NCBI GenBank assembly: GCA_964416905.1
Contig: CAYQFL010000001.1
Span: 39,520-92,646, forward strand
Reading direction: 5' to 3'
DNA: 53,127 bases
DNA from: an uncultured Methanosarcinales archaeon
Lineage (GTDB): Archaea > Nanobdellota > Nanobdellia > Woesearchaeales > JASKKU01
Positions 3 to 40,692 of the stretch are shown one piece after another. Each line of letters begins with the position of its first letter. The first letter of the stretch is position 1. Position numbers and translations under genes: made by a program. The notes under the pieces are model-generated. The model was given only the letters and a program-made list of their open reading frames with translations. It was not told the origin of the DNA and made no database searches.

Positions 3-2666
3 TTTAACGGTCAGGACTGTGATAGCTTAGAAGCTATAGACTGTGAAATCATTGAGTATAATAAAACGGCTAAAAAATTAACTATAGCGATAGATAATCC
101 TGGAGAATATCGTGTAAAAGAAGGGCTTAATGGAGCTATTTCTTTAAAGATATACACTTTTAGAGATAACACTGAATCCACAGACATATATTATCAAGAA
201 CCTGTTTTCTTCAGAGCCAAATACACTTTACCAGTCTACTTTGAAGATTTTGAGAACATAAATTGCTCAATCATTGTTAAAAATGAAAGTGGCATGGTAG
301 TACTCAATGAAGATATGACCCTTAATGCAAGCTACCCAGACTCTAACTTATCCTATGCTATATTCCTAACAAACATTACTGATTCATATTTACCAGTAGG
401 AACATACCATACACAAACGACTTGCCGTCCAAAAAACGGTAGTGGCTACTTTTGGGATCCAAAGACAATTTACAAAGACTTTGAAGTTAAAACAATAAAA
501 ATAAGCGAGAGATACTGGAGCGATACAAAACCTGTACTGCTTTATGATATAACCCAGAGTGAAAACACTACTATGCTAGAGGAAGATGCTAAAAAATATT
601 CCATAAATTTAAATGAAGACGATGATAACAAGAAAACCCTCTATAATAACAACATTTCTTCAGTTTACATTGCTGTGTACCAAGATATTTCTTCTAACGA
701 TACTGTTCTTACACAAAGCAACACAATCAAAGAATTCGTGTGCAACATCTCCTGGGGAGACAACACCTCTGAAATTAAAGCACTAAATGAATCTTTAGAG
801 GAAATCACAATATTACACGAAGAAAAAGGAACAATAACGAATGTTTCCAAAATCAATATCTCAATACTCACTCATAAATATGATTGGCCCGGCGATTATG
901 ATACACATATTCACTGTTATGATCCCGAAGGCATTTATTGGGACTTTTTTGATCAAAAGGAAATAACTATCACTAACAGAAAACCTGTCCTTGCATACGA
1001 AATACCAGATGTAACTTGGTATAAGGACAGCGTTTATTCTCCATATAAATTGGATGATTATTTCTATGACCCTGATGGCGAGAACTTATCATATACTGCC
1101 TTAGAAGTACCAGAAATAGCAATCTATATCTCTAATGATTCTTCTGTTGTTCTTATGCCTGAGAAAGGCTTTGTAGGCTCAAGAATAACATTTTTCACTG
1201 CAATAGATAACTTCGATGCCGCTACCAACTCAAACCTTGTAAATTTAACCGTAATTGGTGAGGAAAAGGAAGAGTACAAAGAGTATGAAGAAGAAAAATC
1301 TTTGCCAGGAGAACCTCCTTTATTACCATTATGTCAGGAGCAGTGGAACTGTACTGAGTGGGGTAAATGTATGCCGTCAGGCATTCAAGTAAGGAAGTGT
1401 TACGATATCAACAACTGTAACACTACTTTCAATAAACCAATTGAATGGAGAACTTGTGTATATACGCCGACTTGCGATGACGGTCTAAAAAACCAAAACG
1501 AAACTGGAGTAGACTGCGGAGGACCTTGTCCGCCATGCCCTTCGTGTAATAATGGTTATCAAGATTGGAATGAAGAAGGCATAGATTGTGGCGGGTATTG
1601 CCCACCATGTCCTACCTGTTATGATGGACTACAAAATCAAGGTGAAGAAGGAATAGATTGTGGAGGACCTTGTCCACCCTGTAGAGAAGAACAGACTCCA
1701 GGAATAGTTCAAACGATTATCATAAACCATCTAAATGAGATAATTATTATTTCAGCTTTGTTAATTGTAACACTTTCATTCGCATCACTCTTATTCAAAA
1801 AAGTTTCTTCATTCAACAGGTTCATCGTTAAAATAGTCAACAAAATAATCTCAGCTCTATCAATCCCTTCATTCACTGAGCAGAACATTTATTCAGAACT
1901 CATCTTTAAAGTTAACAGATTAGAAAGGTTTGCAACAAGAGGCAAACTAAGTGTTATACTTGAGAGAGCAAACGAAATTTTCAAAGAGGTAATTAAGAAC
2001 TTTTTATTGATTGAGGAAGATAAAAGTTACGATGAACTGATAGAAGTAATCTCACACCTTCATTTAAATGAAGTCGATAAATTATTATTACAATATTTAG
2101 CATTAGAATTTGAAAAAGTCAAATTTAGTGATCAAAAAAGTATTTCCAGAAAGAAGTTAATCTCACTAATCAGGAAGATTAAATTGTTAATAGAAAGAAA
2201 CAAACACATTTTACTAGAAGTGCAGCTCAATAAAGAAATTGAGTCTCTTCAAAAAGACATCGAAGAATCATCCAAATCTGAACTTATTGAAAAACGTGTA
2301 CTGCTTAGCTTATTGAGAGAACTATTATTGATTAACGAAAAAATCAAGCAAAGGAAACTGAGAGATGCTATTAGAATCTATAAGAACATAAAGAGGTTGT
2401 ACTCACAACTAAACTTTTGGAACAGGGTCAAAGTATACAATAGAGTTTATGAAACTGTGTTGCGGTTGCAAAAGCTAATCAAAGAGTATAAAGAACTTAA
2501 CCGACAAATCAATACAATGTCCAAACCTCAGAAAGAAGTAACTGCACCAGCAATAACCAAAAGTCCTGAATTAATACAAAATGCATTTAAGGAAAAGTTT
2601 AAATTAAAAAGAATTGGTGAAAAAATAAAGCAGATTTTCAGAAAAAGAGAAAAATCAAAAAAATGA
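3..2666 (+). CDS. Large membrane-anchored surface protein, 5'-truncated by the window edge (Ig/cadherin-like modules, TSP1-like Cys motif, 3 Cys-rich repeats, one TM helix, cytoplasmic helical tail)
   Basis: Frame is open from base 3 (FNGQDCDSLEAIDC...) into the tracked ORF 294..2666, so the real start is outside the window. Contains NRKPVL...DYFYDPDGENLSYT cadherin-like module, CxxxWxCTEWGKC...RKC motif, TM IIIISALLIVTLSFASLLF. Confidence 0.85.
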   Translation, partial: FNGQDCDSLEAIDCEIIEYNKTAKKLTIAIDNPGEYRVKEGLNGAISLKIYTFRDNTESTDIYYQEPVFFRAKYTLPVYFEDFENINCSIIVKNESGMVVLNEDMTLNASYPDSNLSYAIFLTNITDSYLPVGTYHTQTTCRPKNGSGYFWDPKTIYKDFEVKTIKISERYWSDTKPVLLYDITQSENTTMLEEDAKKYSINLNEDDDNKKTLYNNNISSVYIAVYQDISSNDTVLTQSNTIKEFVCNISWGDNTSEIKALNESLEEITILHEEKGTITNVSKINISILTHKYDWPGDYDTHIHCYDPEGIYWDFFDQKEITITNRKPVLAYEIPDVTWYKDSVYSPYKLDDYFYDPDGENLSYTALEVPEIAIYISNDSSVVLMPEKGFVGSRITFFTAIDNFDAATNSNLVNLTVIGEEKEEYKEYEEEKSLPGEPPLLPLCQEQWNCTEWGKCMPSGIQVRKCYDINNCNTTFNKPIEWRTCVYTPTCDDGLKNQNETGVDCGGPCPPCPSCNNGYQDWNEEGIDCGGYCPPCPTCYDGLQNQGEEGIDCGGPCPPCREEQTPGIVQTIIINHLNEIIIISALLIVTLSFASLLFKKVSSFNRFIVKIVNKIISALSIPSFTEQNIYSELIFKVNRLERFATRGKLSVILERANEIFKEVIKNFLLIEEDKSYDELIEVISHLHLNEVDKLLLQYLALEFEKVKFSDQKSISRKKLISLIRKIKLLIERNKHILLEVQLNKEIESLQKDIEESSKSELIEKRVLLSLLRELLLINEKIKQRKLRDAIRIYKNIKRLYSQLNFWNRVKVYNRVYETVLRLQKLIKEYKELNRQINTMSKPQKEVTAPAITKSPELIQNAFKEKFKLKRIGEKIKQIFRKREKSKK
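1470..1685 (+). repeat. Three tandem 72-nt (24 aa) Cys-rich repeats, consensus (T/S)CxxGxxxxxExGxDCGGxCPPC
   Basis: TCDDGLKNQNETGVDCGGPCPPCP / SCNNGYQDWNEEGIDCGGYCPPCP / TCYDGLQNQGEEGIDCGGPCPPCR start at 1470, 1542 and 1614. Confidence 0.95.
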
Positions 2667-5600
2667 ATAATCTTAAGCTTTTTTCGGCGCTTGTAGCAGT
2701 TTTAGCATTAGTTTATGTTTTCACATATAGCTTACCCCCTAATGTCAAAGCAGACATATGGGATAGTTTCTTTAATGGATTCAATAGCATAACTGGATTT
2801 TTAACTGAAGAGGATTATCTTGGAACCTGTTCTGATCCTGTAGGGAATCAAACACCTTATTTTCCCTGCGTTTTACCATCGCAGATAAACCTAACACAGG
2901 GCGATAACTTTCTTTATCAGATATGTTATGCCGACCCGGAAAATGATCCTGTATTGATAAAAGCGGCGCCTGCGCCTGGCGAAGATTCCTGGAACAAGAT
3001 TATCAACAGCATGAACTATAGTGGTTTCATTAACATAACCTTAGACAACAGCGATGTAGGAATTCATAAAGTAATTTATCTTCTACAAGATGCGTGCCAT
3101 TCAGACGATCTAAATAATAAACAAATCATCTATTATGTAAACAACACAAATGATGTTCCAGTCATTGTTGATAAAGCGCCGAACCAAACAGGAGTTACAC
3201 TATTTGAAAATGAGACAGCCTTATTTTCAATAAATGCTACAGACCCCGACCTTTTTGTAGATCAAAGAGTCTTCAATGAAACTTTAAATTACACTTGGAC
3301 TTTAAACAGCTTGATCGTCAAAACAGAAAATGAAACTAAGAATACAAGCTCTAATTATAGCGCGTTCTTTGATTTCTGCAGTGCCGGAACTTGGCAACTA
3401 AGTATTGAAGTCAAAGATAAATCCGGAGAAAAAGATGAGTTCTTATGGACTATCCAAATTAATGATGTAAATAGAGTCCCATATCAAAATGAATCATTCC
3501 CCGAAAATATAACGTTAGATGAAGACAACCCAGCCCTGAATGCCCTAAACATGTACGACTATTTTACAGACCCTGATTTAGAAGAATGCGGAGCTTCAGA
3601 CACAGATTTAAACTTCACATCAGATGTACCTTGGGTTTTTGTAGATAATATCTCAAAGAACTTATCAATAATACCTCCTCAAGACTGGTTTGGAGTCATA
3701 AACGTAAGCTTTAATGTAACTGATGGAATTGCAGAAAACCAGAGTGAAAACCTAACAATAATTGTTAACCCAGTGCCCGATGCGCCAAGAATCGAAAACT
3801 TAACTAATGAAACAGCTGTTGCTAATTTTCCTTTCCATTACAAAATTGACGCCTACGACCCAGATGGAGACAACATCACTTTTTATGATAATACAAGTTT
3901 GTTTGAAATAGATTCAAACAGTGGAGAAATCAGTTTTACTCCGGACATTGCCGATGCAGGATTGCATCACATAAATATAACTGTTGTAGATAACACTAGC
4001 AGACAGACAAGTGCAATATTCAACCTAACAATCATAATAAATCAACCACCAGTTTTCACAAAATGTGAAAATATAACAACTTATGAGAATAACAATACCT
4101 TTGTAGAAGTAGAATACTTTGATCCTGAAGGTGATAATATTAGCGTTTCTGATAATTCAACCCTGTTCACAATAGCCAAAGTTAACAACACATATGCATC
4201 AGCTACGTTCACGCCAACAAATGATGATGTAGGCAACCATACTGTAAACATAACATTAACAGATAGTTGGAATTCTTCCTCGAGCTGTTTAATGGCTATA
4301 GAGATTATTGATGTGAACAATCCACCAGTACTTCAAGAAATAGAAAGCCCTCAGGAATTAAGAATCAATAAAAGTTATTATCTAAAGGTTAATGCTACGG
4401 ATGCTGATGATGATCCTCTAAACTTCTCAGATAATTCCACTGTAATAAACATAAGTGAAACAGGCATAATCAACATAACAAATGTTTCAATACCAGTTGG
4501 GGATTATTTAGTAAACATTAGCGTTTGCGATCCTTACGGATTATGTGATTGGCAGAACGTAATCTTCTCAGTTAAAATAAACCATCCACCACAGTTCATA
4601 GATTTAGATAAAGATTTCAGTTGTGAAGAAGACACACCTTGCTACATTGACTTCAATGCTACTGACCCCGAGAATGACGCAGTATATTTTAGCATTAATG
4701 ATTCTAGTATACTTATCAACAAAACAAGCGGCGAGGTTAACTTCACTAAAAGTGAACCTCAGTTATTGAATATAACGCTGACAGCTACTGATAACTGGAA
4801 TGACTCAAATTCCACTTCAGTTTTAATAAACATCACAGAGAAAAATGATCCCCCTTTAATCCTAGAAGAAAGCACATTAGATATAACTGCTGAAGTTAAT
4901 AGTTTAGTAATCGTTGAAATCTACCTTTATGACGAGGAAAACGACACAATAAACTTAACCCAAAACGATACAAGCCTCTTTAATTTAACCCAAATAAACA
5001 ACACGTATTATAATGCATCATTTGTCCCAACACTCAGTCAAATAGGAGTCCACAAGATTTTATTAAATGCTTCAGATTTAAAATCTAGTACTAGTAAAGT
5101 TTTAACAATAAACATAACACCTGAGAATCTACCTCCAACAATCAATAATAGAACACCGTCTCAATCCTCTCTTGGATTGTATGAAATGGACAGCATATTC
5201 TTTTCAGTGAATGCAAGTGATCCTGAAGGCGAAAATCTACAATATGCATATATCTTAGATAACAAAGTCGTTTCCACACAAAAGAATTATACATATAGAC
5301 CAGATTGGTATTCTGAAGGCACTCATAACTTACAGGTTAATGTTACCGATGAGCATAATAAAACAAATTCAACATCCTGGAGCATATATGTAACCAACCG
5401 TAATAGGAAGCCTATAATGCTAAAAAGGGTATTTAATTCTTCAATAGACCTCGATTGGATTAATGAAAGTATTTTAAATGATGTTGTCTTCAACAATGAA
5501 AATCTTCAGTTTGAATTAGAAAAAGTCAACGGCAATTATACAAGCAACGGCTCAATAATCTTCCCAATAATCTCCTTTAAAACTGATGCTTTCACTGAAC

Positions 5601-6922
5601 CAAGTATTGGAATACAAGCTGAAAACATTATGGTTTCTCCGAATTGCACAACCAATGTTACATACCAGTACAGATTTTCTACCAACAATCCGCCATTAGA
5701 GTTTATTGAAGACCTTGCATGGTCAGAGTGGAGTAGTGAAGATTCAGAGCTTAATGAGAAGACTTTAAATGTATCCACTAGTTCAAAATACTGGCAGATT
5801 AAAGTAAACCTAAGAACTAATTGCACCAACGAGAGCCCTAGAGTAAAAGGTGCTGTTTTTTCTTTCAAACCTGCAACAGTAGATGTATTTCAAGGCGTAG
5901 CTGAAGCTCAATGGATTTATCTACCTGATTTTGTATATGACCCAGATAAGGATGATAAGTTAAGTTATAACGCTTCTTCGGTCATTCCAGGCATAGAAGT
6001 TTTCCCAGACCCTGAAGAAGAGCCTTGGCCTAATACTGGCTGGCTCTACCTATCTACACCAGATTACTTTGCCGGGAAGACCAGCATAAATCTAAGTGTA
6101 AAAGATGACCATAATGATGAAGTAAACGATTTGTTCCCAATAAATGTATTAGAAAGACCTTCAGAGGTTGGTACAAGGATTGAATACAAAATAAAAACTA
6201 AGACCGAGATTCAATACGAAGAAAAGATTGTTGAAAAAGAAGTTCCAAGATATGAATCTTTTAATCTGATTGTTCCGGAAAAAATAACTTTGTATCCAAA
6301 CGATTCTATTGTTGTTCCAATTACTTTAGACAACTATGGCAACAAAACCTTGAACGAAGTCAGGCTTTATGCAAACAGTTCCAGAGATGACGTTGACATT
6401 TTCCTTACGCAAGATTACTTTAAAGTGATCAAATCAGAAAGCCAAGAGAAAACTGAATTAATAGTAACAACTAAAAATATATATGGAGGTTTTGATATTG
6501 TTGTAACTGCAGAAATACAAGACCCGCCATTCAACGATACTGCCAAAATAATAATGGCAACTTTAGAGAAAGGCGAACATAATTCTTCTCAACTTTACAC
6601 AAAAGTATCTTTTACCAGGGATTTACTTAAATCCAACGAACAATGTTTAGAACTAAATGAAATGGTTAAAGAAGCTGAAAACTTGATTTCCCAAGGCAAA
6701 TATTCTTCTGCAGAACAGCTATTACAATCAACTATTGAAGCCTGCAAATATTTAGTAAGTACTAAACAGAGTAAAGAGGAACTTAAAGTTGAGCAAAGAC
6801 CTATTAAGTTTGAGATCTCTTTGAAAAACAATACGTTCATCTTGATAACCATAATTAGTATTTCGTTCATATTGCTGGTAATTATACTATATTGGTTAAC
6901 AGTAGTTCCAAGAAAGAGATAA
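2663..6922 (+). CDS. Giant surface glycoprotein/adhesin (1419 aa) with tandem cadherin/Ig-like repeats and C-terminal TM anchor
   Basis: N-terminal signal peptide, about 10 modules bounded by N(x)PP / DP(D/E)xD motifs, more than 50 N-x-S/T sequons, C-terminal TM FILITIISISFILLVIILYWL followed by PRKR. ATGA overlap with the upstream stop. Confidence 0.85.
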   Translation: MNNLKLFSALVAVLALVYVFTYSLPPNVKADIWDSFFNGFNSITGFLTEEDYLGTCSDPVGNQTPYFPCVLPSQINLTQGDNFLYQICYADPENDPVLIKAAPAPGEDSWNKIINSMNYSGFINITLDNSDVGIHKVIYLLQDACHSDDLNNKQIIYYVNNTNDVPVIVDKAPNQTGVTLFENETALFSINATDPDLFVDQRVFNETLNYTWTLNSLIVKTENETKNTSSNYSAFFDFCSAGTWQLSIEVKDKSGEKDEFLWTIQINDVNRVPYQNESFPENITLDEDNPALNALNMYDYFTDPDLEECGASDTDLNFTSDVPWVFVDNISKNLSIIPPQDWFGVINVSFNVTDGIAENQSENLTIIVNPVPDAPRIENLTNETAVANFPFHYKIDAYDPDGDNITFYDNTSLFEIDSNSGEISFTPDIADAGLHHINITVVDNTSRQTSAIFNLTIIINQPPVFTKCENITTYENNNTFVEVEYFDPEGDNISVSDNSTLFTIAKVNNTYASATFTPTNDDVGNHTVNITLTDSWNSSSSCLMAIEIIDVNNPPVLQEIESPQELRINKSYYLKVNATDADDDPLNFSDNSTVINISETGIINITNVSIPVGDYLVNISVCDPYGLCDWQNVIFSVKINHPPQFIDLDKDFSCEEDTPCYIDFNATDPENDAVYFSINDSSILINKTSGEVNFTKSEPQLLNITLTATDNWNDSNSTSVLINITEKNDPPLILEESTLDITAEVNSLVIVEIYLYDEENDTINLTQNDTSLFNLTQINNTYYNASFVPTLSQIGVHKILLNASDLKSSTSKVLTINITPENLPPTINNRTPSQSSLGLYEMDSIFFSVNASDPEGENLQYAYILDNKVVSTQKNYTYRPDWYSEGTHNLQVNVTDEHNKTNSTSWSIYVTNRNRKPIMLKRVFNSSIDLDWINESILNDVVFNNENLQFELEKVNGNYTSNGSIIFPIISFKTDAFTEPSIGIQAENIMVSPNCTTNVTYQYRFSTNNPPLEFIEDLAWSEWSSEDSELNEKTLNVSTSSKYWQIKVNLRTNCTNESPRVKGAVFSFKPATVDVFQGVAEAQWIYLPDFVYDPDKDDKLSYNASSVIPGIEVFPDPEEEPWPNTGWLYLSTPDYFAGKTSINLSVKDDHNDEVNDLFPINVLERPSEVGTRIEYKIKTKTEIQYEEKIVEKEVPRYESFNLIVPEKITLYPNDSIVVPITLDNYGNKTLNEVRLYANSSRDDVDIFLTQDYFKVIKSESQEKTELIVTTKNIYGGFDIVVTAEIQDPPFNDTAKIIMATLEKGEHNSSQLYTKVSFTRDLLKSNEQCLELNEMVKEAENLISQGKYSSAEQLLQSTIEACKYLVSTKQSKEELKVEQRPIKFEISLKNNTFILITIISISFILLVIILYWLTVVPRKR

Positions 6923-6949: not shown

Positions 6950-7600
6950 TTATTTGTTTTGCTTGGCGCGTTTAATATCTAAGAACAAGTTTAAGATATC
7001 TCCTTTTACTTCCTTTTGATCATTCTCATCAAGTAATTCATAAGCTCGCTTTATTTTATTATAAAGTTTTTCTGCGTCCTGAACTCTGTTTAAATCCAGA
7101 TAAGAGTAAGCTTTTATGATCATTTTTTGTATATCTAACTTCGTGACTCTTTTACGTATTGCTTTCAAAAGAAGCAAAATTAAACTTTTTTTCTTTTTAG
7201 GTAAAGGATTACTACTCTTTTTGTTCGCTTCCCTATGTAAATGAAGCTGGTTCAAAATAACAAGTATTTCATCAATGATTGATAAAAGCGTGTTCTTATC
7301 CACCACTTCAGGAGCATATTCTATAGAGGTGATTCTTTCATTAAAGGAAATCATCTTTTGTTTTATTGCATAAGGAATGGTTTTTTTATTCTTTATTTCA
7401 TGATTGATTTCCTCAAAAGTTGTTGAGTACTTAACATGCAACAGTTTTGAATAAAATCTCCTAATAATATGAAACAAGTTTATTTTAAGTTGTTCAGAAT
7501 CTAGGTCTCTTGACCTTTTTTTTAAATCCGCTAACTCTAATGAGAATTTATTGAAAGGATCCTCTTTAGATTTAGAACGCGCAATTTTACGTTTAAACAT
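6950..7600 (-). CDS. Soluble all-helical protein, DUF4381/DUF4129-like, resembling the cytoplasmic tail of CDS 3..2666
   Basis: 216 aa ORF with ATG start, divergent from moxR. Motifs IIRRFY..STTFEEI...SIEYA and AEKLYNKIKRAYELL are mirrored in the ORF1 tail. Confidence 0.7.
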   Translation of the reverse strand: MFKRKIARSKSKEDPFNKFSLELADLKKRSRDLDSEQLKINLFHIIRRFYSKLLHVKYSTTFEEINHEIKNKKTIPYAIKQKMISFNERITSIEYAPEVVDKNTLLSIIDEILVILNQLHLHREANKKSSNPLPKKKKSLILLLLKAIRKRVTKLDIQKMIIKAYSYLDLNRVQDAEKLYNKIKRAYELLDENDQKEVKGDILNLFLDIKRAKQNK

Positions 7601-7695: not shown

Positions 7696-8685
7696 ATGGT
7701 TTTATCAATAACAAAAGAAGAAGCAAATAAAATCAAAAATGAGGTAGACTTAATAAAAAAAGAAATCAGTAAAGTTTTTATTGGTCAGCGCGAGATTATT
7801 GATGGTTTCATTACATGTTTATTATCAAATGGTTCTGTTCTGATTGAAGGTGTTCCGGGTTTAGGAAAAACTCTTTTGGCAAGAACAATTGCTAAAGTCT
7901 TGGGAGTACAATTCTCGAGGATTCAATTTACACCAGACCTTCTACCTACAGATATCATTGGTATTACAACTTATGAAGAGGGCAGAGGTTTCTATGTCTT
8001 AAAAGGACCAATCTTCGCAAACATTGTTCTGGCAGACGAAATCAACAGAGCTCCACCTAAAGTTCAATCTGCGTTGCTAGAAGCCATGCAGGAAAAACAG
8101 GCAACAATCTCTAAGGAAACGTTTGAATTACCAAAACCATTCTTTGTTCTGGCTACAGAGAACCCATTAGAAAGTTTGGGTACTTATCCACTACCTGATG
8201 CTCAGTTAGATAGATTCCTGTTTAAAATTTTCATAGGTTATCCTTCTCTTGAAGAAGAAAGGCGGATTCTAGATACAAACATCACTTCTAAAAAGTTTGA
8301 AGATTACGATCTTAAAGCGGTTTCCTCTGCTGACAGAATCCTTGAATTGCAGGAAAAGCTAAAGAATGTCTTTGTCGATGAAAAAATCAAAGAATATATT
8401 GTTAAAATTGTTGATGCTACCAGAAATCCTGATAAGTATAAGCTCAAATTAGGCAAATACATACAATACGGCGCATCCCCTAGGGCATCAATTGCTTTTT
8501 ATCTAAGCAGTAAAGTGGATGCTGTTACAGTTTTCGGAAAGAATTATGTAACCCCTTATAATGTAAAGAGGGTTGCAAAACACATTTTAAATCACAGAGT
8601 AGCTGTTAACTTCGAGGGCGAAACAAACAACATAAGCTCTTTTGACATAATTGAAGAGATTATCACCAAAATTCCAGTGCCATAA
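7696..8685 (+). CDS. moxR: MoxR family AAA+ ATPase
   Basis: GVPGLGKT, RIQFTPDLLPTDIIG, LADEINRAPPKVQSALLEAMQE, ATENPLE, GASPRAS. Confidence 0.95.
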   Translation: MVLSITKEEANKIKNEVDLIKKEISKVFIGQREIIDGFITCLLSNGSVLIEGVPGLGKTLLARTIAKVLGVQFSRIQFTPDLLPTDIIGITTYEEGRGFYVLKGPIFANIVLADEINRAPPKVQSALLEAMQEKQATISKETFELPKPFFVLATENPLESLGTYPLPDAQLDRFLFKIFIGYPSLEEERRILDTNITSKKFEDYDLKAVSSADRILELQEKLKNVFVDEKIKEYIVKIVDATRNPDKYKLKLGKYIQYGASPRASIAFYLSSKVDAVTVFGKNYVTPYNVKRVAKHILNHRVAVNFEGETNNISSFDIIEEIITKIPVP

Positions 8686-8727
8686 TAACCAAGCATCATT
8701 TTACTTAAAATAAACTAAGTGATTCTC

Positions 8728-9603
8728 ATGCTAAAAGAGATAAAGGCAAATCTGAAGCCTTTAATCAAAAAATTAGAAATCCAGAGCCAAAAAAGTGTTT
8801 TCGGGGAGTTTACTGGCGAATACAGAACACATTTTAAAGGTCGAGGTCTGGATTTTGATGGGTTTAGAGATTACCTGCCTTCTGATGATGCATCAATGAT
8901 AGATTGGAGGGCAAGCTTAAGAGCTCAACACCTGCTAGTAAGAGTGTATAAAGAAGAAAGGAACCTTGATGTTTATATTGTGTTTGACACCAGCACTAGC
9001 ATGTGTTTCTCTTCAACAGATAAATTAAAAGCTGAGTTTGCAGCAGAAGTTGTTGCGAACCTTGCGTTTGGAGCAATTCAAGTGGGGGACAACGTTAGCT
9101 TAATTATGTTCAATGATGAAGTTAAGGCTTTCCTTGCACCAAAGCAAGGCAAATCGCAGTTTAGCAAGATAATCTCCTTGCTATCAGACCCAAAAAATTA
9201 CTTTGGGAACCTTAACTTTGAAGCAGCTATTTCAAGTTTAAAAAGTGCAATGAGAAAACCAGGAGTAATAATTATTGTTTCAGATTTTATAGGTTTCCCT
9301 GAAAACTGGGACTCATTAATTGCAGGGTTTGCAAAGTATTCAAGGATTTTAGGGATCATGATACGAGATCCTAGAGATGATGAAATCCCAAAAGAGTTAG
9401 GCGAATTAGTGCTAAGCGGTCCATACAGCAAAGAAGTTGTCAAATTTAACTCATGGATTCTGGCTGAAAGATTCCGGGAAGAAGTAATCAAACAAAAAGA
9501 AGATATTTTTAAAAAAATAAAAGCGCTTGAAGGTTCAATCCTAGAAATTAAAACAACCGAACCATTCGATAAAAAGATAAGGTCCTTTTTCGCTAGAGGC
9601 TAA
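8728..9603 (+). CDS. DUF58 family (vWA-like) MoxR partner
   Basis: FKGRGLDFDGFRDYLPSDDASMIDWRASLR, EERNLDVYIVFDTSTSM, IIVSDF. ORF track starts at GTG 8719; ATG at 8728. Confidence 0.9.
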   Translation: MLKEIKANLKPLIKKLEIQSQKSVFGEFTGEYRTHFKGRGLDFDGFRDYLPSDDASMIDWRASLRAQHLLVRVYKEERNLDVYIVFDTSTSMCFSSTDKLKAEFAAEVVANLAFGAIQVGDNVSLIMFNDEVKAFLAPKQGKSQFSKIISLLSDPKNYFGNLNFEAAISSLKSAMRKPGVIIIVSDFIGFPENWDSLIAGFAKYSRILGIMIRDPRDDEIPKELGELVLSGPYSKEVVKFNSWILAERFREEVIKQKEDIFKKIKALEGSILEIKTTEPFDKKIRSFFARG

Positions 9604-9610
9604 TATAAAA

Positions 9611-10567
9611 ATGGTCCAAATTGTATTTCAGAATGCAGAATTTTTATGGTTCTTGATTATTTTAGTGTGGATCATAGTAACTCATTTATTTATTTCTATA
9701 AAAGTAAAACAGAAAGCATTCCTTTTTGCCAACTTCGAAGTCCTTAAAAAGGTTGTATTCGAAGATAAAACCGAACCAAAAACAAACAAAATCAATTTAT
9801 CTTTAGATATTCTATTTCTAAGATTATTGACACTTACTTTCTTAATATTGTCTCTATGTCATCCTGTTGTGTGGTATGAGGGGAATGTTGCAAACAGGAA
9901 TTATGTACTAGCCATAGACTCATCAAGTTCTATGCTAGCTGATGACTTAAATCCAAATAGATTTGAGGTTGCGAAAAGTCACAGCAAATTCTTGGTAAAC
10001 AGAATAAAATCATTAAATTCGAAAGTAGGTATAGTCTCATTTGCAGGTTCATCCTTAATTGTTTCTGAGTTATCTGATGATTATGAAAAATTATTATCAA
10101 AGATTGATTCTATGGACGTATTAAACATCCCGGGAACAGATTTAGGCGAAGCCATAATAACCTCAGTAAACATTCTTCAATCTGAAACAAAACCTGGAGC
10201 AGTCATTTTAATCACGGATGGAAGGTCAACAGTAGGAACAAACCTCGAACAGGCAGTTTATTATGCAAGGGAGCGTCAAATTCCTGTATACACAATAGGT
10301 GTAGGTACCAAAGAAGGCGGTAAATTCATACCTGCTGGGTTCACAAAGCTCGACGAAGATCAATTGAAACAGATTGCTGAACAAACCGATGGAAAGTTTT
10401 TCAGAGCTGAAACAAAAGAAGATTTAGGAGAAAGTCTAAAAGAGATTGTTGAAATTGAAAAAGGTAAAGTTCCTTTAGATTTATCGATACCATTTATGCT
10501 TATAGGCTTAATCTTACTAAGCATCGAATGGGGAGTTCTAAACACAAAACGTAGGACCTTGCCATAA
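9611..10567 (+). CDS. BatA-like membrane vWA domain protein
   Basis: N-terminal BatA-like TM (FQNAEFLWFL), MIDAS LAIDSSSSM, NRFEVAK, GTDLGEAI, LITDG, YTIGVG, C-terminal TM. Confidence 0.9.
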   Translation: MVQIVFQNAEFLWFLIILVWIIVTHLFISIKVKQKAFLFANFEVLKKVVFEDKTEPKTNKINLSLDILFLRLLTLTFLILSLCHPVVWYEGNVANRNYVLAIDSSSSMLADDLNPNRFEVAKSHSKFLVNRIKSLNSKVGIVSFAGSSLIVSELSDDYEKLLSKIDSMDVLNIPGTDLGEAIITSVNILQSETKPGAVILITDGRSTVGTNLEQAVYYARERQIPVYTIGVGTKEGGKFIPAGFTKLDEDQLKQIAEQTDGKFFRAETKEDLGESLKEIVEIEKGKVPLDLSIPFMLIGLILLSIEWGVLNTKRRTLP

Positions 10568-12928: not shown

Positions 12929-13095
12929 ATCTTAATGCGTTCTTTAAAAAGTTTTTTTATTATTTTTAAAATTTCTCCAATATCTTAAAGCAATCACTCA
13001 CCTTAAAGAATTAAAAAGAATTAAAAATAAAAAGGCTAATATTAAGAATAAAGTTTAAAACATCAACGCAAAGTAAATTTTTTTGGACAGATAAA

Positions 13096-15120
13096 ATGGC
13101 AAATTCAGAATCTGAATTAAAAAAATCTCTTAATTTACCTATTTTAATTATTCTCGCTATAACCTCAGTTGTTGGTTCAGGCATATTCTTTGTTCCAGCA
13201 ATTAGCGTTCAAATGAGCGGTGGAAGCGCTATTCTTGCTTGGACAATCCTTGCCATATTAAGTTTAATCATCATCTTATACTTTGCAGAATTAGCTAGCA
13301 TGTTCCCTTCTTTAGGTGGAGTTTACGAATTTGCTAAACAAGCATACAACAAATTCGCTGGCTTTTTAGTCGGTTGGACCGAATGGATCATTGGAAATTT
13401 GACAACGGCAATGCTTGTAGTTTCAGCGTTACAATTCATAATTCAACAGCAAACTGTTGTGATTTTAGGTTTGTCTTTAAGTAGTCAGCTTTTCAAAATC
13501 ATCTTGGGGATAACAATTATTGCAATCTTTAATTATGTAGCGTTTAGAGGTATTGAATTCAGTTCTAAATTTGTCATGACTTTCGGCATAATTCAGATGA
13601 TTCTGATTTTAGTGGTAATCTTCTTGGCATTCTTCTCAGGAAACTTTTCATTAAATAATTTCGAACCTTTCTTTTTATCTCAAGATACTCCACTAAATTT
13701 TACCAACTTGTTCATAACCTTAATCTTTATCTCTGATATTTTCTTGGGTATGGAAGGAATTTTCTCACTGTCTGAAGAAACAAAGAATCCTTCAAAAGTT
13801 GTACCAAAAGCAGTCATTATAGCTCAAATAATTCTTTCTCTTATATCCATAACCTCCTTAATTGCGATCATTGGGTTCTTTGGGGTTGAAAACTTAGTAA
13901 ACAACACTCTTGAATCTTCAACGAATCCAGGATGGGTTTACTTAAATATTGGTTATAGATTCTTCGGCGAAAACGGCGCTACTTTGTTTTCAGTTTTGAT
14001 TTTCCTTAGCATTATTGGTTCTGCTGCAGATTGGATAATAAGTGCACCAAGGTTGTTAATGGCAATGGCTAGAGATAAATTGTTCATTCCCCAATTAAAC
14101 AAAGTCCACAAAAAACATAAAACACCGTACAGAGCAATAATCTTTCAAACCATTATCATGAGCTTATTCACAGTCATTGGCTTAACAAAATCCGGTTATC
14201 AAACTCTAGTTCAGATTCTCATGCCATTAAGTTTTATGATAGTCATCTCAATGCTTTTTGCGGTAACCTATTTAAGATTTAGAAAACCACACATAGAAAG
14301 ACCTTTCAAAGCTCCGCTTGCTAAAGCTGGTCCAATCATCACAGCATTTATTCTTCTAATAATCCTAAGTGTCTGGATAAGATTTCAACCAAATGCAACA
14401 ACATTATTCGGAGTAGCTGCTTCTTTCGTGTTAATAGGATTCCCATTCTATTTATTAATGCAGTTTTATACTAATGAAAACATTAAGACGGCTTTTAATG
14501 AACATCTAACCAGAGCATACATACTCTTAGAATCAATAAATTTGCCAAAAAGACTGCGCAAAGAGATTTTAACATTAATGGGGGATTTAAGGAACAAAAC
14601 AGTAGTCGAATATGGTTGCGGCGTGGGCACGCTTACAAAAGAATTAGTCAAAGAAAGTAAAAATTCAACCAAGATTATAGCTGTTGATCAATCCATAAAG
14701 AACCTGAATATTGTTAAAAAGAGGATTAACAAAATCACAAACAAGAAGGGAATAGTAGTTAAACAGTTTCAAACACTGCTGGATCCTAAGCTTGAATTAA
14801 AATTTGATTCAAAAGCAGATATCTTAATTTTTAATGCCGTCCTCGATTCTATTCCTGACTTAGATAGCTTTCTTGTAAAAGTACGACAAAAACTCGCAAG
14901 TTCTGGACAGATTTATTTCATAGAGTTTTGCGACCTTTTCGGATTTTTACCAAATCCCCCTTATTTAGTTGACGAAAAAGAACTTGAAAACAAGTTTAAG
15001 AAACACGGTTTTGCTGTTAGGTTAATGAAAAGGCCTGGTCTTTTATGGAACTATCTCATAATCTATGGGTTTAAAGTAGACATCGAAAACACAGACAATA
15101 CAACTATCAGCGTAATCTAA
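13096..15120 (+). CDS. APC-family amino acid permease fused to a C-terminal class I SAM-dependent methyltransferase domain
   Basis: TM1 VVGSGIFF, GGVYEFA, EETKNPSK, about 12 TMs; then VVEYGCGVG (aa 505-511), IIAVDQS, DILIFNAVL, GQIYFIEF. Confidence 0.85.
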   Translation: MANSESELKKSLNLPILIILAITSVVGSGIFFVPAISVQMSGGSAILAWTILAILSLIIILYFAELASMFPSLGGVYEFAKQAYNKFAGFLVGWTEWIIGNLTTAMLVVSALQFIIQQQTVVILGLSLSSQLFKIILGITIIAIFNYVAFRGIEFSSKFVMTFGIIQMILILVVIFLAFFSGNFSLNNFEPFFLSQDTPLNFTNLFITLIFISDIFLGMEGIFSLSEETKNPSKVVPKAVIIAQIILSLISITSLIAIIGFFGVENLVNNTLESSTNPGWVYLNIGYRFFGENGATLFSVLIFLSIIGSAADWIISAPRLLMAMARDKLFIPQLNKVHKKHKTPYRAIIFQTIIMSLFTVIGLTKSGYQTLVQILMPLSFMIVISMLFAVTYLRFRKPHIERPFKAPLAKAGPIITAFILLIILSVWIRFQPNATTLFGVAASFVLIGFPFYLLMQFYTNENIKTAFNEHLTRAYILLESINLPKRLRKEILTLMGDLRNKTVVEYGCGVGTLTKELVKESKNSTKIIAVDQSIKNLNIVKKRINKITNKKGIVVKQFQTLLDPKLELKFDSKADILIFNAVLDSIPDLDSFLVKVRQKLASSGQIYFIEFCDLFGFLPNPPYLVDEKELENKFKKHGFAVRLMKRPGLLWNYLIIYGFKVDIENTDNTTISVI

Positions 15121-22187: not shown

Positions 22188-23057
22188 TCACTTTCTACGA
22201 GGCATAGATGCTTGGGCACCACCTTGCGGTCCAGGGCTTTGAGCTAATCTTGTATGCAACTTATCTAAAATTTTCTTTTGAACTGCATTTAATCTTTCTC
22301 TAACTCGCTCAGCAATATTAGCGTTCAACTGGTTAAGCTGCTGCTCATGAGCTGTCCTCATCTGTTTAACTCTTTCCTGGATTTGTTCAATCTGTTGAGC
22401 TTGATTTCTTATAACTTCTCTTAATTGATTCTTTAATTGTTCCTTGTTTGTTAATGCTGATTCATCAAATCTTACATCAGGTTTATTTAGCATAGCTCTA
22501 ACAATTTTTTCATTATGAGCTCTGACATGTTGTGTAATCATTTCCTTAACAGCTCTAATTTTTTCTTGGATTTTCTGTTGTGCGTTTTCATTAACTTTAG
22601 TTCTAATCTGAGCAAGCTCTTCTCCTGTAAAATCTTCATGCAAAATTGTGCTAAATTGTCTTATTAAAGACCTGCTCTCATTAAGCAAAATCACAAAATC
22701 TGATGCTAAATTTTGCAGAGTTTCTTGGTTTACTTCTTCAGGAATTGTTGACACAGTTTCATTAACCTGATCAGCTAAAGCTCTCATATTTTCAAGCATA
22801 AGCTCCAACTCAGAAGAATCGTAATCAGGTTTAACTTCCTTAATTGCATTTATTACTTCCTCGCCCTTAATAATCTGGGTTTCAAGATTCTTATTTAATT
22901 GTAACAACCTAACCTTTGCACCAAAACTTGTTGTGAATGCCTTTAAAGCTTCATCCTCAATAGCATTATCTTCTGCATAAACTGAAGGCATTATTGCTAT
23001 TGAAAACACCGCAAACAATGCAACCAGCATCAAAACAATATTCAATTTCTTTTTCAT
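22188..23057 (-). CDS. Secreted all-helical Gln/Glu-rich coiled-coil protein
   Basis: GGAGGTGA RBS before ATG at 23057. Signal peptide MKKKLNIVLMLVALFAVFSIAIMPSVYA, heptad-rich body. Confidence 0.8.
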   Translation of the reverse strand: MKKKLNIVLMLVALFAVFSIAIMPSVYAEDNAIEDEALKAFTTSFGAKVRLLQLNKNLETQIIKGEEVINAIKEVKPDYDSSELELMLENMRALADQVNETVSTIPEEVNQETLQNLASDFVILLNESRSLIRQFSTILHEDFTGEELAQIRTKVNENAQQKIQEKIRAVKEMITQHVRAHNEKIVRAMLNKPDVRFDESALTNKEQLKNQLREVIRNQAQQIEQIQERVKQMRTAHEQQLNQLNANIAERVRERLNAVQKKILDKLHTRLAQSPGPQGGAQASMPRRK

Positions 23058-35297: not shown

Positions 35298-36284
35298 TTA
35301 ACCTGTTTCTACGTGCTTAATTGCTACCTCTTTGATTAATTGTTCTTTATACTGATAATAAACATCTATGTTCAATGGTTTTACATAATTTCCTTTGAGC
35401 GTATAACTTATTGGTATCTCACAAGTCACTAGGGCAGTTGTTTTATCATAGAGCTTGACAAATCCACTTTTACCATTCAAAGGATTACATCTAATAGTTC
35501 CCCACTGATTTTCCGGATCAACTTTTACATAAACGTAATCAACCTTATCAAAATCTATATCTGCTGCATCGCAGTTTGATGAAGAGAACCTATCATTATT
35601 GGGTCTAATCAATGTACCTTTGCCATTAAAGGTTATCTCAAACTCAACCCTGATTTTATCCTTTGTTGCAGATTCTGTAACTTTTGAAACCTTAACAGGA
35701 GATGACGAGGCAAATACTTGCTTCTCAGCGTTTACCTCACAAACATCATTAGATGATGGTCTCAACAGATTCTCAGTAACACACAATAAAGTTGTCGCAC
35801 TGCTCTTATAAAGATAACAAACATCAACTCCTATAGGTAATTTCAACTCTCCACTTCCGCTAATAGAACTTTTATAAGCTAAATTTCCTGTTCTTGGCAA
35901 AGTAACATATGTTTCGCCACCAGGCCTAACTGTACCATCTTGAGATTTTGATTTAGGTTCTAAATCTGTATCCAAGCTATTAACAGTCAAAGCTGAGGCT
36001 GTTGAACCAAAATCTGAAGGTGAAAAACCTGTTGCTTTTATTATAATATTATTTTTAGCAACCTTAAATTCACCGTCATTTTTAACCTTGAGAACTATAT
36101 TAAAAGGCCTGTTTCCATTATCATAAATCTCATCCGGCGGATTGTTAGGCATAAACTCTATTTTTAAACCATTGTCTCCTCCAATGTATGGCGAAGAGAA
36201 AGTTGTAGAGCCATTATCTGAGCTACAACTAGTCATAAAAAACAGAACCGCAAACGCTAAAATGAAATATATCGCTTTTTTCAT
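35298..36284 (-). CDS. Predicted lipoprotein, beta-rich with paired Cys
   Basis: AGGAGG RBS, signal peptide with FMTSC lipobox-like motif, YIGGDNGLKIEFMPNNPPDEIYD. Confidence 0.8.
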   Translation of the reverse strand: MKKAIYFILAFAVLFFMTSCSSDNGSTTFSSPYIGGDNGLKIEFMPNNPPDEIYDNGNRPFNIVLKVKNDGEFKVAKNNIIIKATGFSPSDFGSTASALTVNSLDTDLEPKSKSQDGTVRPGGETYVTLPRTGNLAYKSSISGSGELKLPIGVDVCYLYKSSATTLLCVTENLLRPSSNDVCEVNAEKQVFASSSPVKVSKVTESATKDKIRVEFEITFNGKGTLIRPNNDRFSSSNCDAADIDFDKVDYVYVKVDPENQWGTIRCNPLNGKSGFVKLYDKTTALVTCEIPISYTLKGNYVKPLNIDVYYQYKEQLIKEVAIKHVETG

Positions 36285-40545: not shown

Positions 40546-40692
40546 CTTAAACACTAAACTGTATTGATGAAAACCTAAAGAGATAAACATAAAGCTGTTG
40601 TCACTCTTTAGATAACTCTGAGTTTTATAAAGTTATTTATTTGTAAGTTTTTATCTATTATCTTGTTTTATTAGTTTTGAACAAAAAAGGCA

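What the first reader, a model, noticed from the sequence alone, without database searches (positions are those of the whole stretch)
13096..15120. APC amino-acid permease fused to a SAM-dependent methyltransferase domain
One uninterrupted ORF joins a roughly 12-TM APC transporter to a complete class I Rossmann MTase: motif I VEYGCGVG at 14605-14628, acidic end of beta-2 (AVDQ), and motif IV/V region. With an even TM count the domain would be cytoplasmic. I know of no characterised transporter with this architecture. Options are a SAM-sensing regulatory domain gating Met/SAM or amino-acid uptake, or vectorial import-and-methylate. Relevant for an auxotrophic symbiont.
Basis: partly seen in the sequence, partly recalled or inferred. 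Interest (0 to 1): 0.75.

Follow-up and report, generated by a model that had tools for sequence, protein, structure and literature searches.

The report
Amino-acid transporter fused to methyltransferase domain
A tiny symbiotic archaeon (Woesearchaeota) makes one protein that joins a 12-helix amino-acid transporter to an intracellular SAM-binding methyltransferase-type domain; the fusion is real, conserved across this archaeal group and uncharacterised, so it may be a new way of tying nutrient transport to the cell's methyl-donor status.

Summary
Window 13096-15120 (+) is one uninterrupted 674-aa ORF. Residues 16-440 match Pfam AA_permease_2 (1e-43). The predicted fold is 12-TM SLC7/LAT-like (TM-score 0.85 to BasC). 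Residues 483-612 match class I methyltransferase (MTase) Pfam models, with the glycine motif GCGVG and the β2 acidic residue D531 intact. The positive-inside rule places the domain in the cytoplasm.

The fusion is not an assembly artefact. All 80 best species-representative genome loci carry one continuous frame across both halves. About 110 representatives at 50% identity carry the same domain, most of them 600-700 aa with it C-terminal. Two apparent stand-alone genes were truncated fusions.

The MTase domain belongs to no characterised enzyme family, gene context gives no clue, and I found no paper on this architecture.

A large sister clade has an N-terminal pore-less voltage-sensor domain. 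It has lost the SAM motifs but keeps the C-terminal domain.

My best reading is a SAM-binding cytoplasmic module that is mechanically coupled to the transporter and gates it (0.42). The main rival is methylation of the transported substrate (0.33). Neither was tested. This is a new variant of a known kind. Interest is 0.65.

The parts
12929..13095 (+). AT-rich intergenic region between the divergent topA gene and the fusion gene; presumed promoter region
   Evidence: Both neighbouring genes lie on the opposite strand, so the gene is monocistronic. No promoter was tested.
13096..15120 (+). Whole fusion ORF, 674 aa plus stop codon
   Evidence: ORF; both Pfam domains; AF2 pLDDT 88, pTM 0.83.
13096..14472 (+). 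APC / SLC7-LAT-type 12-TM transporter half (aa 1-459)
   Evidence: Pfam AA_permease_2, 1.2e-43. PDB sequence hits xCT, BasC and LAT1 at E about 1e-23. Foldseek BasC 9h76 TM-score 0.85 normalised to target length. K+R inside/outside 546/68.
13174..13188 (+). TM1 motif G27-S-G-I-F31, the unwound-helix substrate carboxylate site of SLC7/APC transporters
   Evidence: G27 and G29 are at least 90% conserved in the family. The motif aligns to xCT 'GAGIF'. Its role is inferred from established SLC7 structures.
14473..14595 (+). Helical linker from TM12 to the MTase core (aa 460-500), containing the conserved 'LPKxxRKEIL' stretch
   Evidence: Four short helices in the model, pLDDT 79-93. E479 and P484 are invariant in alignment A3. 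Mean pairwise identity is 0.40.
14596..15078 (+). Class I (seven-beta-strand) MTase core (aa 501-661)
   Evidence: Pfam Methyltransf_23, _31, _12, _11 and Ubie. Seven strands in the AF2 models. Foldseek probability 1.0 to UbiG, 3dh0, Coq5 and CouO, TM-score 0.6-0.7.
14605..14628 (+). Motif I, V-E-Y-G507-C-G509-V-G511 (SAM-binding glycine loop)
   Evidence: Read directly from the sequence. G507 is present in 289 and G511 in 288 of 317 aligned domains, about 297 of which are ungapped at these columns.
14686..14688 (+). D531, the acidic residue at the end of beta-2 (SAM ribose hydroxyl ligand in class I MTases)
   Evidence: D or E in 265 of 305 ungapped domains. Its role is inferred from established class I MTase structures.
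14950..14955 (+). P619-N620 in the post-beta-5 loop, nearly invariant and kept even in the SAM-dead sister clade
   Evidence: Candidate structural or interface element (inference).
15046..15054 (+). W651-N652-Y653 at the beta-6/beta-7 turn, conserved together with the SAM motifs
   Evidence: W is present in 234 of 275 ungapped domains. The motif is replaced by K(T/E)E in most members of the voltage-sensor clade, which has also lost motif I.
15079..15117 (+). C-terminal tail (aa 662-674) ending ...I-S-V-I-COOH
   Evidence: 121 of 158 family tails of at least 6 residues end phi-x-phi-(V/I/L). 112 of 199 tails are exactly 8 residues long. The tail has low pLDDT (53-60) in the model.

Best explanation
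What it is: the gene encodes one polypeptide. An SLC7/LAT-type 12-TM amino-acid transporter continues from TM12, through a roughly 40-residue helical linker, into a cytoplasmic class I methyltransferase-fold domain with an intact SAM-binding site.

Proposed mechanism: I think this domain is a SAM-binding module held against the cytoplasmic face of the transporter. Its ligand state (SAM, SAH or empty) would set how readily the transporter cycles. That would make amino-acid uptake or exchange, most plausibly of methionine or related amino acids, responsive to the cell's methyl-donor status. This would be a ligand-gated secondary transporter. It may still transfer a methyl group.

Shown: the single ORF, both folds, the cytoplasmic location, intact and conserved SAM motifs, co-evolution of the two halves, and order-wide conservation in Woesearchaeota.

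Inferred: SAM binding, physical coupling of the domains, the gating function and the substrate.
For: 1. The domain is fixed to the transporter and evolves with it. The two halves have equal mean pairwise identity (0.48 against 0.50) and their divergence is correlated (r=0.87). The linker carries invariant residues. The full-length model has pTM 0.83.

2. The SAM site is kept. 250 of 298 informative domains retain G507, G511 and D/E531, and the window protein has all three.

3. A large sister clade keeps the C-terminal domain but has lost the SAM site. All 119 voltage-sensor-bearing members that match the MTase-domain profile lack canonical motif I, and nearly all lack WNY. Of 145 members without a voltage sensor, 126 are intact. 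This clade has an N-terminal S1-S4 voltage-sensor domain. The domain is therefore retained for a reason that does not need SAM, which implies structural or allosteric coupling. Loss of the SAM input coincides with the presence of a bona fide regulatory module.

4. Within that clade the C-terminal domain's constraint is much lower than the transporter's (0.45 against 0.78). The extra constraint in the intact clade is therefore tied to the SAM site.

5. No neighbouring genes suggest a pathway that would use a methylated product.

6. A conserved hydrophobic C-terminal tail is a candidate plug.

7. From established knowledge, most cytoplasmic domains fused to secondary carriers are regulatory (STAS, CBS, RCK, USP, CNBD). 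SAMTOR shows that an MTase fold can serve as a pure SAM sensor (PMC10883374).
Against: No binding, transport or structural experiment exists.

I could not inspect the model's coordinates or its inter-domain error estimates, so the orientation of the SAM pocket relative to the transport pathway is unknown.

The acceptor-side loops (post-beta-4, post-beta-5, the beta-6/7 turn) are among the most conserved parts of the domain. That pattern is typical of an active enzyme with a defined substrate.

All close structural relatives are catalytically active small-molecule MTases. MTase-fold sensors are rare.

A dead domain can also persist in a paralogue simply because it is needed for folding.

The window protein and its 70%-identical relative differ from the family consensus in the post-beta-4 loop (FNAVLDSIPD against S-x-G-x-L-G-Y-x-Q-D). 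They also lack the His/Asp cluster after beta-3. Family-level inferences may therefore transfer imperfectly to this protein.
Confidence: 0.42

Rival explanations
1. Substrate channelling. The domain is an active small-molecule MTase that methylates the amino acid or amine carried by its own transporter. It would act either on arrival (import-and-methylate, a metabolic trap) or before exit (methylate-and-export, or precursor/product exchange through an obligatory LAT-type exchanger).
For: SAM motifs are intact and conserved. The acceptor-face loops with aromatic and acidic residues (Y585, D588, D613, W623, W651-N-Y653) are highly conserved. W651-N-Y653 is lost together with motif I in the sister clade, which suggests it is part of the same active site. 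The closest folds are active small-molecule MTases such as UbiG, Coq5, CouO and PEAMT. The closest transporters are SLC7/BasC-type exchangers. From memory, enzyme-transporter fusions and pairs exist, for example Acr3-ArsC, AdiA/AdiC and TehA/TehB.
Against: There is no match to any specific enzyme family; all NCBIfam hits are far below cut-off. No pathway genes are nearby. Spending SAM on every transported molecule is costly for a reduced symbiont. The SAM-dead sister clade shows the domain is kept without catalysis.
Confidence: 0.33
2. Membrane-anchored MTase with an unrelated substrate. The transporter half mainly tethers the enzyme at the membrane, where it methylates a lipid head-group, a quinone-like lipid or a membrane or peripheral protein. 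Transport and methylation would be functionally independent.
For: The best structural hits include the membrane-associated lipid-substrate enzymes UbiG and Coq5. There are weak hits to phosphoethanolamine and phospholipid N-MTases. One source names a homologue 'amino acid transporter/phospholipid N-methyltransferase'.
Against: Those hits are generic: 12-20% identity, and the PEAMT score is inflated by its two tandem domains. The tight co-evolution of the halves and the retention of all transporter substrate-site motifs argue for a working transporter, not an anchor. Woesearchaeota are not known to make quinones (from memory, not tested here).
Confidence: 0.1
3. Artefact. The fusion arises from a lost stop codon, a frameshift or a chimeric assembly of two adjacent genes.
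For: None found.
Against: All 80 genome loci have an uninterrupted frame. The same architecture occurs in independent JGI, ENA, TARA and NCBI assemblies. About 110 representatives at 50% identity carry the domain. No verified split version exists. The model is confident across the junction.
Confidence: 0.01

Closest known systems
SLC7/LAT-type APC exchangers: bacterial BasC (PDB 9h76, 6f2g), human LAT1, xCT, SLC7A10, y+LAT1
   Same: 12-TM LeuT-fold core. The TM1 G-S-G-I-F motif and the TM6-loop 'LSEETKNP' motif are present. PDB sequence E is about 1e-23. Foldseek TM-score normalised to target length is 0.83-0.85. N- and C-termini are cytoplasmic.
   Different: Only 18-22% identity. Below the cut-off of every NCBIfam APC subfamily or equivalog (158 bits against 557 for TIGR00909). 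No heavy-chain partner. Carries a 215-residue C-terminal MTase-fold domain that no solved APC transporter has.
Small-molecule class I SAM MTases: UbiG (5dpm, 4kdr), Aquifex 3dh0, Coq5, CouO/NovO, MenG/UbiE, BioC, plant and nematode phosphoethanolamine N-MTases
   Same: Seven-strand Rossmann-like fold, motif I GxGxG, beta-2 acid, Methyltransf_11/23/25/31 profiles.
   Different: 12-20% identity and TM-score 0.6-0.7. All NCBIfam scores are 17-41 bits against cut-offs of 44-600. Has its own conserved P-N and W-N-Y motifs and a phi-x-phi-(V/I) C-terminal tail. Always covalently attached to a transporter.
SAMTOR, an MTase-fold SAM sensor of mTORC1 signalling (PMC10883374)
   Same: Functional analogy only: a class I MTase fold used to report SAM levels rather than to methylate.
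   Different: No specific sequence or structural relationship was seen; it is absent from the top PDB hits. SAMTOR is a soluble eukaryotic protein that signals through protein-protein interaction, not a transporter domain.
[quoted passage not shown]
   Same: A secondary transporter covalently joined to channel-type and ligand-binding regulatory domains. The sister clade found here (voltage sensor + APC + degenerate MTase domain) has a comparable three-part layout.
   Different: Different transporter superfamily (CPA against APC), different domain order (the sensor is N-terminal here), archaeal rather than metazoan, and an MTase fold in place of the cyclic-nucleotide-binding domain. The window protein itself has no voltage sensor.
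GadC C-plug and enzyme-transporter fusions such as Acr3-ArsC (both recalled from memory, not checked here)
   Same: GadC is an APC antiporter whose C-terminal segment plugs the cytoplasmic pathway, an analogy for the conserved tail. Acr3-ArsC is an enzyme fused to the transporter of its product, an analogy for the channelling rival.
   Different: No homology of the extra domains. Neither involves a methyltransferase fold.

Membership tests
APC superfamily, AA_permease_2 (PF13520) | Score above Pfam gathering threshold | tested here: met
   150.1 bits against a cut-off of 27, aa 16-440.
APC superfamily, AA_permease_2 (PF13520) | 12-TM LeuT-type fold with both termini cytoplasmic | tested here: met
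   12 helical TM segments. Foldseek TM-score 0.85 (normalised to target) to BasC. K+R inside/outside 546/68.
APC superfamily, AA_permease_2 (PF13520) | TM1 G-(S/T)-G and TM6 substrate-site motifs | tested here: met
   G27-S-G-I-F31 and G218-x-E220...L-S-E-E-T-K-N-P are conserved.
Curated APC subfamilies (TIGR00909 ABT, TIGR00905 APA, TIGR00911 LAT, BcaP, YjeH, EAT) | Score above NCBIfam curated cut-off | tested here: not met
   The best hit is 158 bits against 556.8; all others are further below their cut-offs. It is not filed under any named subfamily.
APC transporter | Transport or exchange of a defined amino acid | not testable with these tools
   Needs proteoliposome or whole-cell uptake assays.
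Class I SAM-dependent methyltransferase (Methyltransf_23/31/11/12) | Score above Pfam gathering threshold | tested here: met
   PF13489 44.2 against 27, PF13847 41.8 against 27, PF01209 30.9 against 20.1, PF08241 27.2 against 21.2.
Class I SAM-dependent methyltransferase | Seven-stranded beta-sheet Rossmann-like fold | tested here: met
   Seven strands in both AF2 models. Foldseek probability 1.0 to many class I MTases.
Class I SAM-dependent methyltransferase | Motif I GxGxG and an acidic residue at the end of beta-2 | tested here: met
   G507-C-G509-V-G511 and D531. Conserved in 250 of 298 informative family members.
Class I SAM-dependent methyltransferase | SAM binding and methyl transfer | not testable with these tools
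   Needs ITC or DSF with SAM/SAH and activity assays.
Specific MTase enzymes (UbiG, UbiE/MenG, BioC, PmtA, ArsM, PEAMT) | Score above NCBIfam curated cut-off, or close structural match | tested here: not met
   17-41 bits against cut-offs of 44-600. Foldseek identity 12-20%.
SAMTOR-type MTase-fold SAM sensor | Homology to SAMTOR | tested here: not met
   Not among the top hits of the PDB profile search or the fold search. This is an analogy of mechanism only.
Voltage-sensor domain (sister clade only, not the window protein) | S1-S4 with basic residues every third position in S4, plus F-x-x-D (S2) and D (S3) of the charge-transfer centre, and no pore domain | tested here: met
   Pfam Ion_trans positions 8-119 of 241, 25.6 bits against a cut-off of 25 for one member and 23.6 for another. 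All 17 PDB profile hits are voltage sensors, best the isolated KvAP sensor at 3.9e-4. 112 of 121 members have at least 5 basic residues in register. 'IFAIDLYYRW' and 'LDIIATIPF' are conserved. Support is moderate and voltage sensitivity is untested.

The most novel reading that the evidence does not exclude
Woesearchaeota have built a modular family of regulated SLC7-type transporters. In one clade, which includes the window protein, a fused MTase-fold domain makes transport depend on SAM, by gating or by methyl transfer to the cargo. In the sister clade that domain has become a SAM-blind pseudo-enzyme and an N-terminal voltage-sensor domain takes over. That would be the first SAM-gated transporter and the second known class of voltage-sensor-regulated secondary transporter, after SLC9C1.
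Probability: 0.3. Interest if true: 0.85.

Novelty: new variant of a known kind. Interest (0 to 1): 0.65.

Why it matters
SLC7/APC transporters are intensively studied as nutrient carriers, drug targets and models of LeuT-fold mechanics. As far as I could find, none is known to carry a methyltransferase-fold domain.

If the domain gates transport in response to SAM or SAH, it would be a new principle linking one-carbon status directly to amino-acid uptake. It would also explain how genome-reduced DPANN symbionts, which must import their amino acids, regulate that import without elaborate signalling.

If instead it methylates the cargo, it would be a rare example of group-translocation-like chemistry on a secondary carrier.

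The sister clade with a pore-less voltage sensor on the same scaffold matters independently. SLC9C1 is currently described as the only transporter known to be regulated by voltage-sensing domains (PMC10620092).

Both clades are abundant, compact and prokaryotic, so they should be tractable for cryo-EM and proteoliposome work.

Tried and rejected
1. Misassembly or a lost stop codon: rejected.

2. Stand-alone MTase homologues as evidence for a split system: P0124 and P0162 looked stand-alone. Their upstream in-frame sequence encodes TM11-TM12. In L086/L087 it stays open to the contig edge, and in L085 it is broken by stop codons on a 1.5-kb contig. There is no verified split form.

3. Operon context as a clue: the neighbours are housekeeping genes. 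They differ between clades: topA/rpS7/hisS here, Alba/RNase P/proteasome/exosome in L002, and enolase and others in L001. Only the window's own subclade shares topA-fusion-rpS7 synteny.

4. Assignment to phosphoethanolamine N-MTases: the top PDB profile hit (9e-20) is inflated by two tandem domains, with the best single stretch at 42 bits. The single-domain proteins 3mgg and 3dh0 score 63-65 bits. Rejected as a specific relationship.

5. NCBIfam assignment of either half: everything is below cut-off.

Repeated with the narrower full-length alignment A3.

7. Literature: four searches for the fusion and one for voltage sensor plus amino-acid transporter found nothing relevant. The DPANN protein-family paper PMC8204110 does not mention it.

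8. SAM or methionine metabolism genes, or a paralogue, in the window: no paralogue was found. Of the 41 ORFs, 31 were scanned against Pfam and none is a SAM or methionine metabolism gene.

9. Inter-domain geometry: model coordinates and error maps are not exposed by the tools, so the orientation of the active site could not be analysed.
Full report
OBSERVATION. The window carries a single ORF at 13096..15120 on the + strand. It is 674 aa long, starts with ATG and has no internal stop. Pfam finds AA_permease_2 over residues 16-440 (E=1.2e-43, 150 bits against a cut-off of 27). It finds several class I methyltransferase models over residues 480-614 (Methyltransf_23 2.3e-11, Methyltransf_31 1.1e-10, Ubie_methyltran 2.2e-7). 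There are twelve hydrophobic/helical segments.

IS THE FUSION REAL? The first homology search returned about 75 clusters at 90% identity covering 89-100% of the query at 29-70% identity. Nearly all have both Pfam domains. The score then falls sharply from 230 to 130 bits, where ordinary unfused APC permeases of about 430 aa begin. One homologue (P0007) occurs in 74 blocks of the collection, from JGI, TARA and ENA assemblies. A profile of the MTase domain alone, scored against 1.84 billion representatives, finds 110 proteins at E<=1e-30. Most are 600-700 aa with the domain at the C-terminus. Those whose N-terminal half was compared with the window's APC half mostly matched it. A scan of GTDB species-representative genomes found 452 stretches encoding a relative. 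The best 80 loci all match query residues about 1-660, and all 80 have one stop-free frame of 609-736 codons across both halves. Two hits of about 200 aa that looked like stand-alone MTases are truncated fusions. The in-frame sequence upstream of each called start encodes TM11-TM12 (…GIPVYFLLELYYDP…). In L086/L087 it runs open to the contig edge, and in L085 it is broken by stop codons on a 1.5-kb contig. Misassembly and 'always separate genes' are therefore both excluded.

ORGANISM AND CONTEXT. The window has about 34% GC. It encodes archaeal housekeeping genes: topoisomerase I, ribosomal protein S7, HisRS, thermosome, proteasome subunit, RFC, family B DNA polymerase, aCPSF1/FttA, Hef and ribonucleotide reductase. 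Homologues are labelled Woesearchaeota, Nanoarchaeota or Nanobdellota. By my count of the table, 23 of the 80 genome loci carry an 'uncultured Methanosarcinales' or 'Methanosarcinales' label. Two of these (L007, L008) share the window's topA-fusion-rpS7 synteny, with 61-79% (TopA) and 73-94% (S7) identical neighbours, just as the Woesearchaeota-labelled L005 and L006 do. I treat that label as unreliable. Both neighbours of the gene are on the opposite strand, so it is monocistronic. Context differs in other clades and gives no functional clue. The window holds no paralogue of either half.

THE TRANSPORTER HALF. The closest solved sequences are xCT, BasC and LAT1 at E about 1e-23. The full-length model (pLDDT 88, pTM 0.83) superposes on BasC, LAT1, SLC7A10 and y+LAT1 with TM-scores of 0.83-0.85 normalised to the target. 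The TM1 G-S-G-I-F motif and the TM6-loop G-x-E…LSEETKNP motif are conserved. In SLC7 structures these hold the substrate's alpha-carboxylate and alpha-amino groups, so an alpha-amino-acid substrate is likely (inference). No NCBIfam subfamily cut-off is reached; the best is 158 bits against 557. The substrate is therefore unknown. Across 45 family members the predicted inside loops hold 546 K+R and the outside loops 68. This places both termini, and hence the MTase domain, in the cytoplasm.

THE MTASE HALF. Modelled alone, the domain has pLDDT 89 and the canonical seven strands. Foldseek finds only generic small-molecule class I MTases: UbiG, Aquifex 3dh0, Coq5, CouO/NovO and others, at TM-score 0.6-0.7 and 12-20% identity. 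The family profile's top PDB hit is plant phosphoethanolamine N-MTase at 9e-20, but this is inflated by two tandem domains. The best single-domain hits are the uncharacterised 3mgg and 3dh0. Every NCBIfam hit is far below cut-off. It is a class I MTase but belongs to no named enzyme family. Of 298 informative family domains, 250 keep G507, G511 and D/E531, and the window protein has all of them. The loops on the methyl-acceptor face are also highly conserved: after beta-4 S-x-G-x-L-G-Y-x-Q-D, after beta-5 D-x-F-x-x-x-P-N-x-x-W, and at the beta-6/7 turn W-N-Y. The window protein and its 70% relative deviate in the post-beta-4 loop and lack a His/Asp-rich 'HDEH…H' stretch found after beta-3 in most members.

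COUPLING OF THE HALVES. In the MTase-intact clade the two halves are equally conserved (mean pairwise identity 0.48 and 0.50) and their divergence is correlated (r=0.87). The linker has invariant residues and is confidently modelled. A conserved C-terminal tail ends phi-x-phi-(V/I/L)-COOH in 121 of 158 members with tails of at least 6 residues, and 112 of 199 tails are exactly 8 residues long. The window protein ends ISVI.

AN UNEXPECTED SISTER CLADE. Five long homologues in the first alignment had lost motif I, and all but one had also lost the beta-2 acid. They carry a roughly 150-residue N-terminal extension. The extension matches the S1-S4 part of Pfam Ion_trans at 8e-6 (25.6 bits against 25). 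All 17 PDB profile hits are voltage-sensor domains, best the isolated KvAP sensor at 3.9e-4. Its S4 has basic residues at every third position. The charge-transfer-centre residues are conserved: F-x-x-D in S2 and D in S3. A dedicated search found more than 120 clusters of this type, about 770 aa long, from the same archaeal group. All 119 voltage-sensor proteins that match the MTase-domain profile lack the canonical first glycine of motif I, and nearly all have K(T/E)E in place of W-N-Y. Of 145 proteins without a sensor, 126 are fully intact. Within the sensor clade the C-terminal domain is far less constrained than the transporter (0.45 against 0.78), yet it still keeps the L-G-Y and P-N loops.

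MECHANISM. The C-terminal domain is retained across a large clade without a SAM site. It must therefore contribute something that does not need SAM. The simplest possibility is a structural or allosteric contact with the transporter's cytoplasmic face, probably through the elements both clades keep (P-N, L-G-Y). In the clade containing the window protein, the additional and equally strong constraint maps to the SAM site and W-N-Y. Loss of that site coincides with the presence of a classical regulatory module, the voltage sensor.

The most economical story is that the domain is a regulatory module whose input is SAM or SAH. That makes the window protein a SAM-responsive amino-acid transporter (confidence 0.42). 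SAMTOR is a precedent for an MTase fold acting as a pure SAM sensor (PMC10883374). SLC9C1 is a precedent for a secondary carrier with covalently attached sensor domains (PMC10620092, PMC6052114).

The main rival is that the domain is an active enzyme that methylates the cargo (0.33). It is supported by the conserved acceptor-face loops and by the fact that every close structural relative is an active enzyme. The two readings are not mutually exclusive. A membrane-anchored MTase with an unrelated lipid or protein substrate gets 0.10, and artefact 0.01. None of the functional steps (SAM binding, transport substrate, coupling) has been shown.

NOVELTY. Both domains are ordinary; the combination is not. 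No PDB chain has both halves. No paper on the architecture was found in open-access literature. Database names are simply 'amino acid permease' or 'APC family permease'. The sequences themselves are abundant in public data, so this is an uncharacterised, order-wide family rather than a unique gene. I rate it a new variant of a known kind.

LIMITS. I could not access model coordinates or inter-domain error maps. The taxonomy rests on submitters' labels. The count of 452 refers to matching stretches, not genomes, and includes both paralogue types. The voltage-sensor identification rests on moderate E-values plus motif logic.

Noticed in passing
Not in the window; homologues P0064, P0068, P0069, P0071, P0073 and P0268-P0383 (residues 1-150 of P0068): A large sister clade (more than 120 clusters, about 770 aa, Woesearchaeota/Nanoarchaeota labels) has a pore-less S1-S4 voltage-sensor domain fused N-terminally to the same APC transporter. 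Its C-terminal MTase domain has lost motif I in all 119 profile-matched members, and nearly all have lost W-N-Y. SLC9C1 is currently described as the only transporter regulated by voltage-sensing domains (PMC10620092), so this deserves its own follow-up.
   Followed up: partly
window 15079-15117 (aa 662-674) and the equivalent tails of homologues: The family has a conserved extreme C-terminal tail, typically 8 residues ending (I/V)-P-(Y/F)-(I/V)-COOH; the window protein ends I-S-V-I. It could be an autoinhibitory plug or pseudo-substrate, by analogy with the GadC C-plug. Its function is unknown.
   Followed up: partly
Homologues P0126, P0146, P0147, P0180 (827-858 aa): Some family members have about 200 extra residues after the MTase domain. 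In P0126 this region gives a DUF3108 Pfam hit (3.5e-7). It is a third, unexplained module.
   Followed up: no
Homologues P0174, P0184, P0187, P0189, P0192, P0205, P0210, P0215, P0242: A divergent clade (602-689 aa) carries the same C-terminal MTase domain, but its N-terminal half gives only very weak AA_permease_2 hits or none. It may be a highly diverged APC or a different membrane domain.
   Followed up: partly
Family alignment positions equivalent to window aa 562-572 (nt 14779-14811): Most family members have a His/Asp/Glu-rich stretch 'I-H-D-E-H-Q-x-N-R-V-H-P' between beta-3 and beta-4 (H562 in 188, H565 in 129 and H571 in 184 of 317 domains). This looks like a possible metal site. The window protein and its closest relatives lack it (LLDPKLELKFD).
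   Followed up: no
L016 (NJBN01000005.1, end of a 306-kb contig labelled candidate division LCP-89 bacterium); also 23 loci labelled Methanosarcinales: A full-length fusion gene sits at the very end of a contig assigned to a bacterium. The locus has 34% GC, like the archaeal loci, which suggests a chimeric contig, mis-binning or lateral transfer. The 'Methanosarcinales' labels are contradicted by synteny with Woesearchaeota MAGs for L007 and L008.
   Followed up: partly
window 294-6922 (+): Two very large adjacent ORFs. One is 790 aa with no Pfam hit. The other is 1419 aa with Big_9 and cadherin-like repeats. They are probably cell-surface or adhesion proteins of the kind expected in an episymbiont.
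   Followed up: no
window 7696-10567 (+): A MoxR-type AAA ATPase, a DUF58/VWA protein and a BatA/VWA protein lie in a row, which is a MoxR-VWA cassette.
   Followed up: no
window 6950-7600, 22188-23057, 35298-36284, 36533-37165, 37203-37766, 42344-43123: Six ORFs of 187-328 aa with no Pfam match (E<=0.001 for the first, E<=1e-5 for the rest). The 623-aa ORF at 38719-40590 has only a weak Lon_C hit.
   Followed up: no
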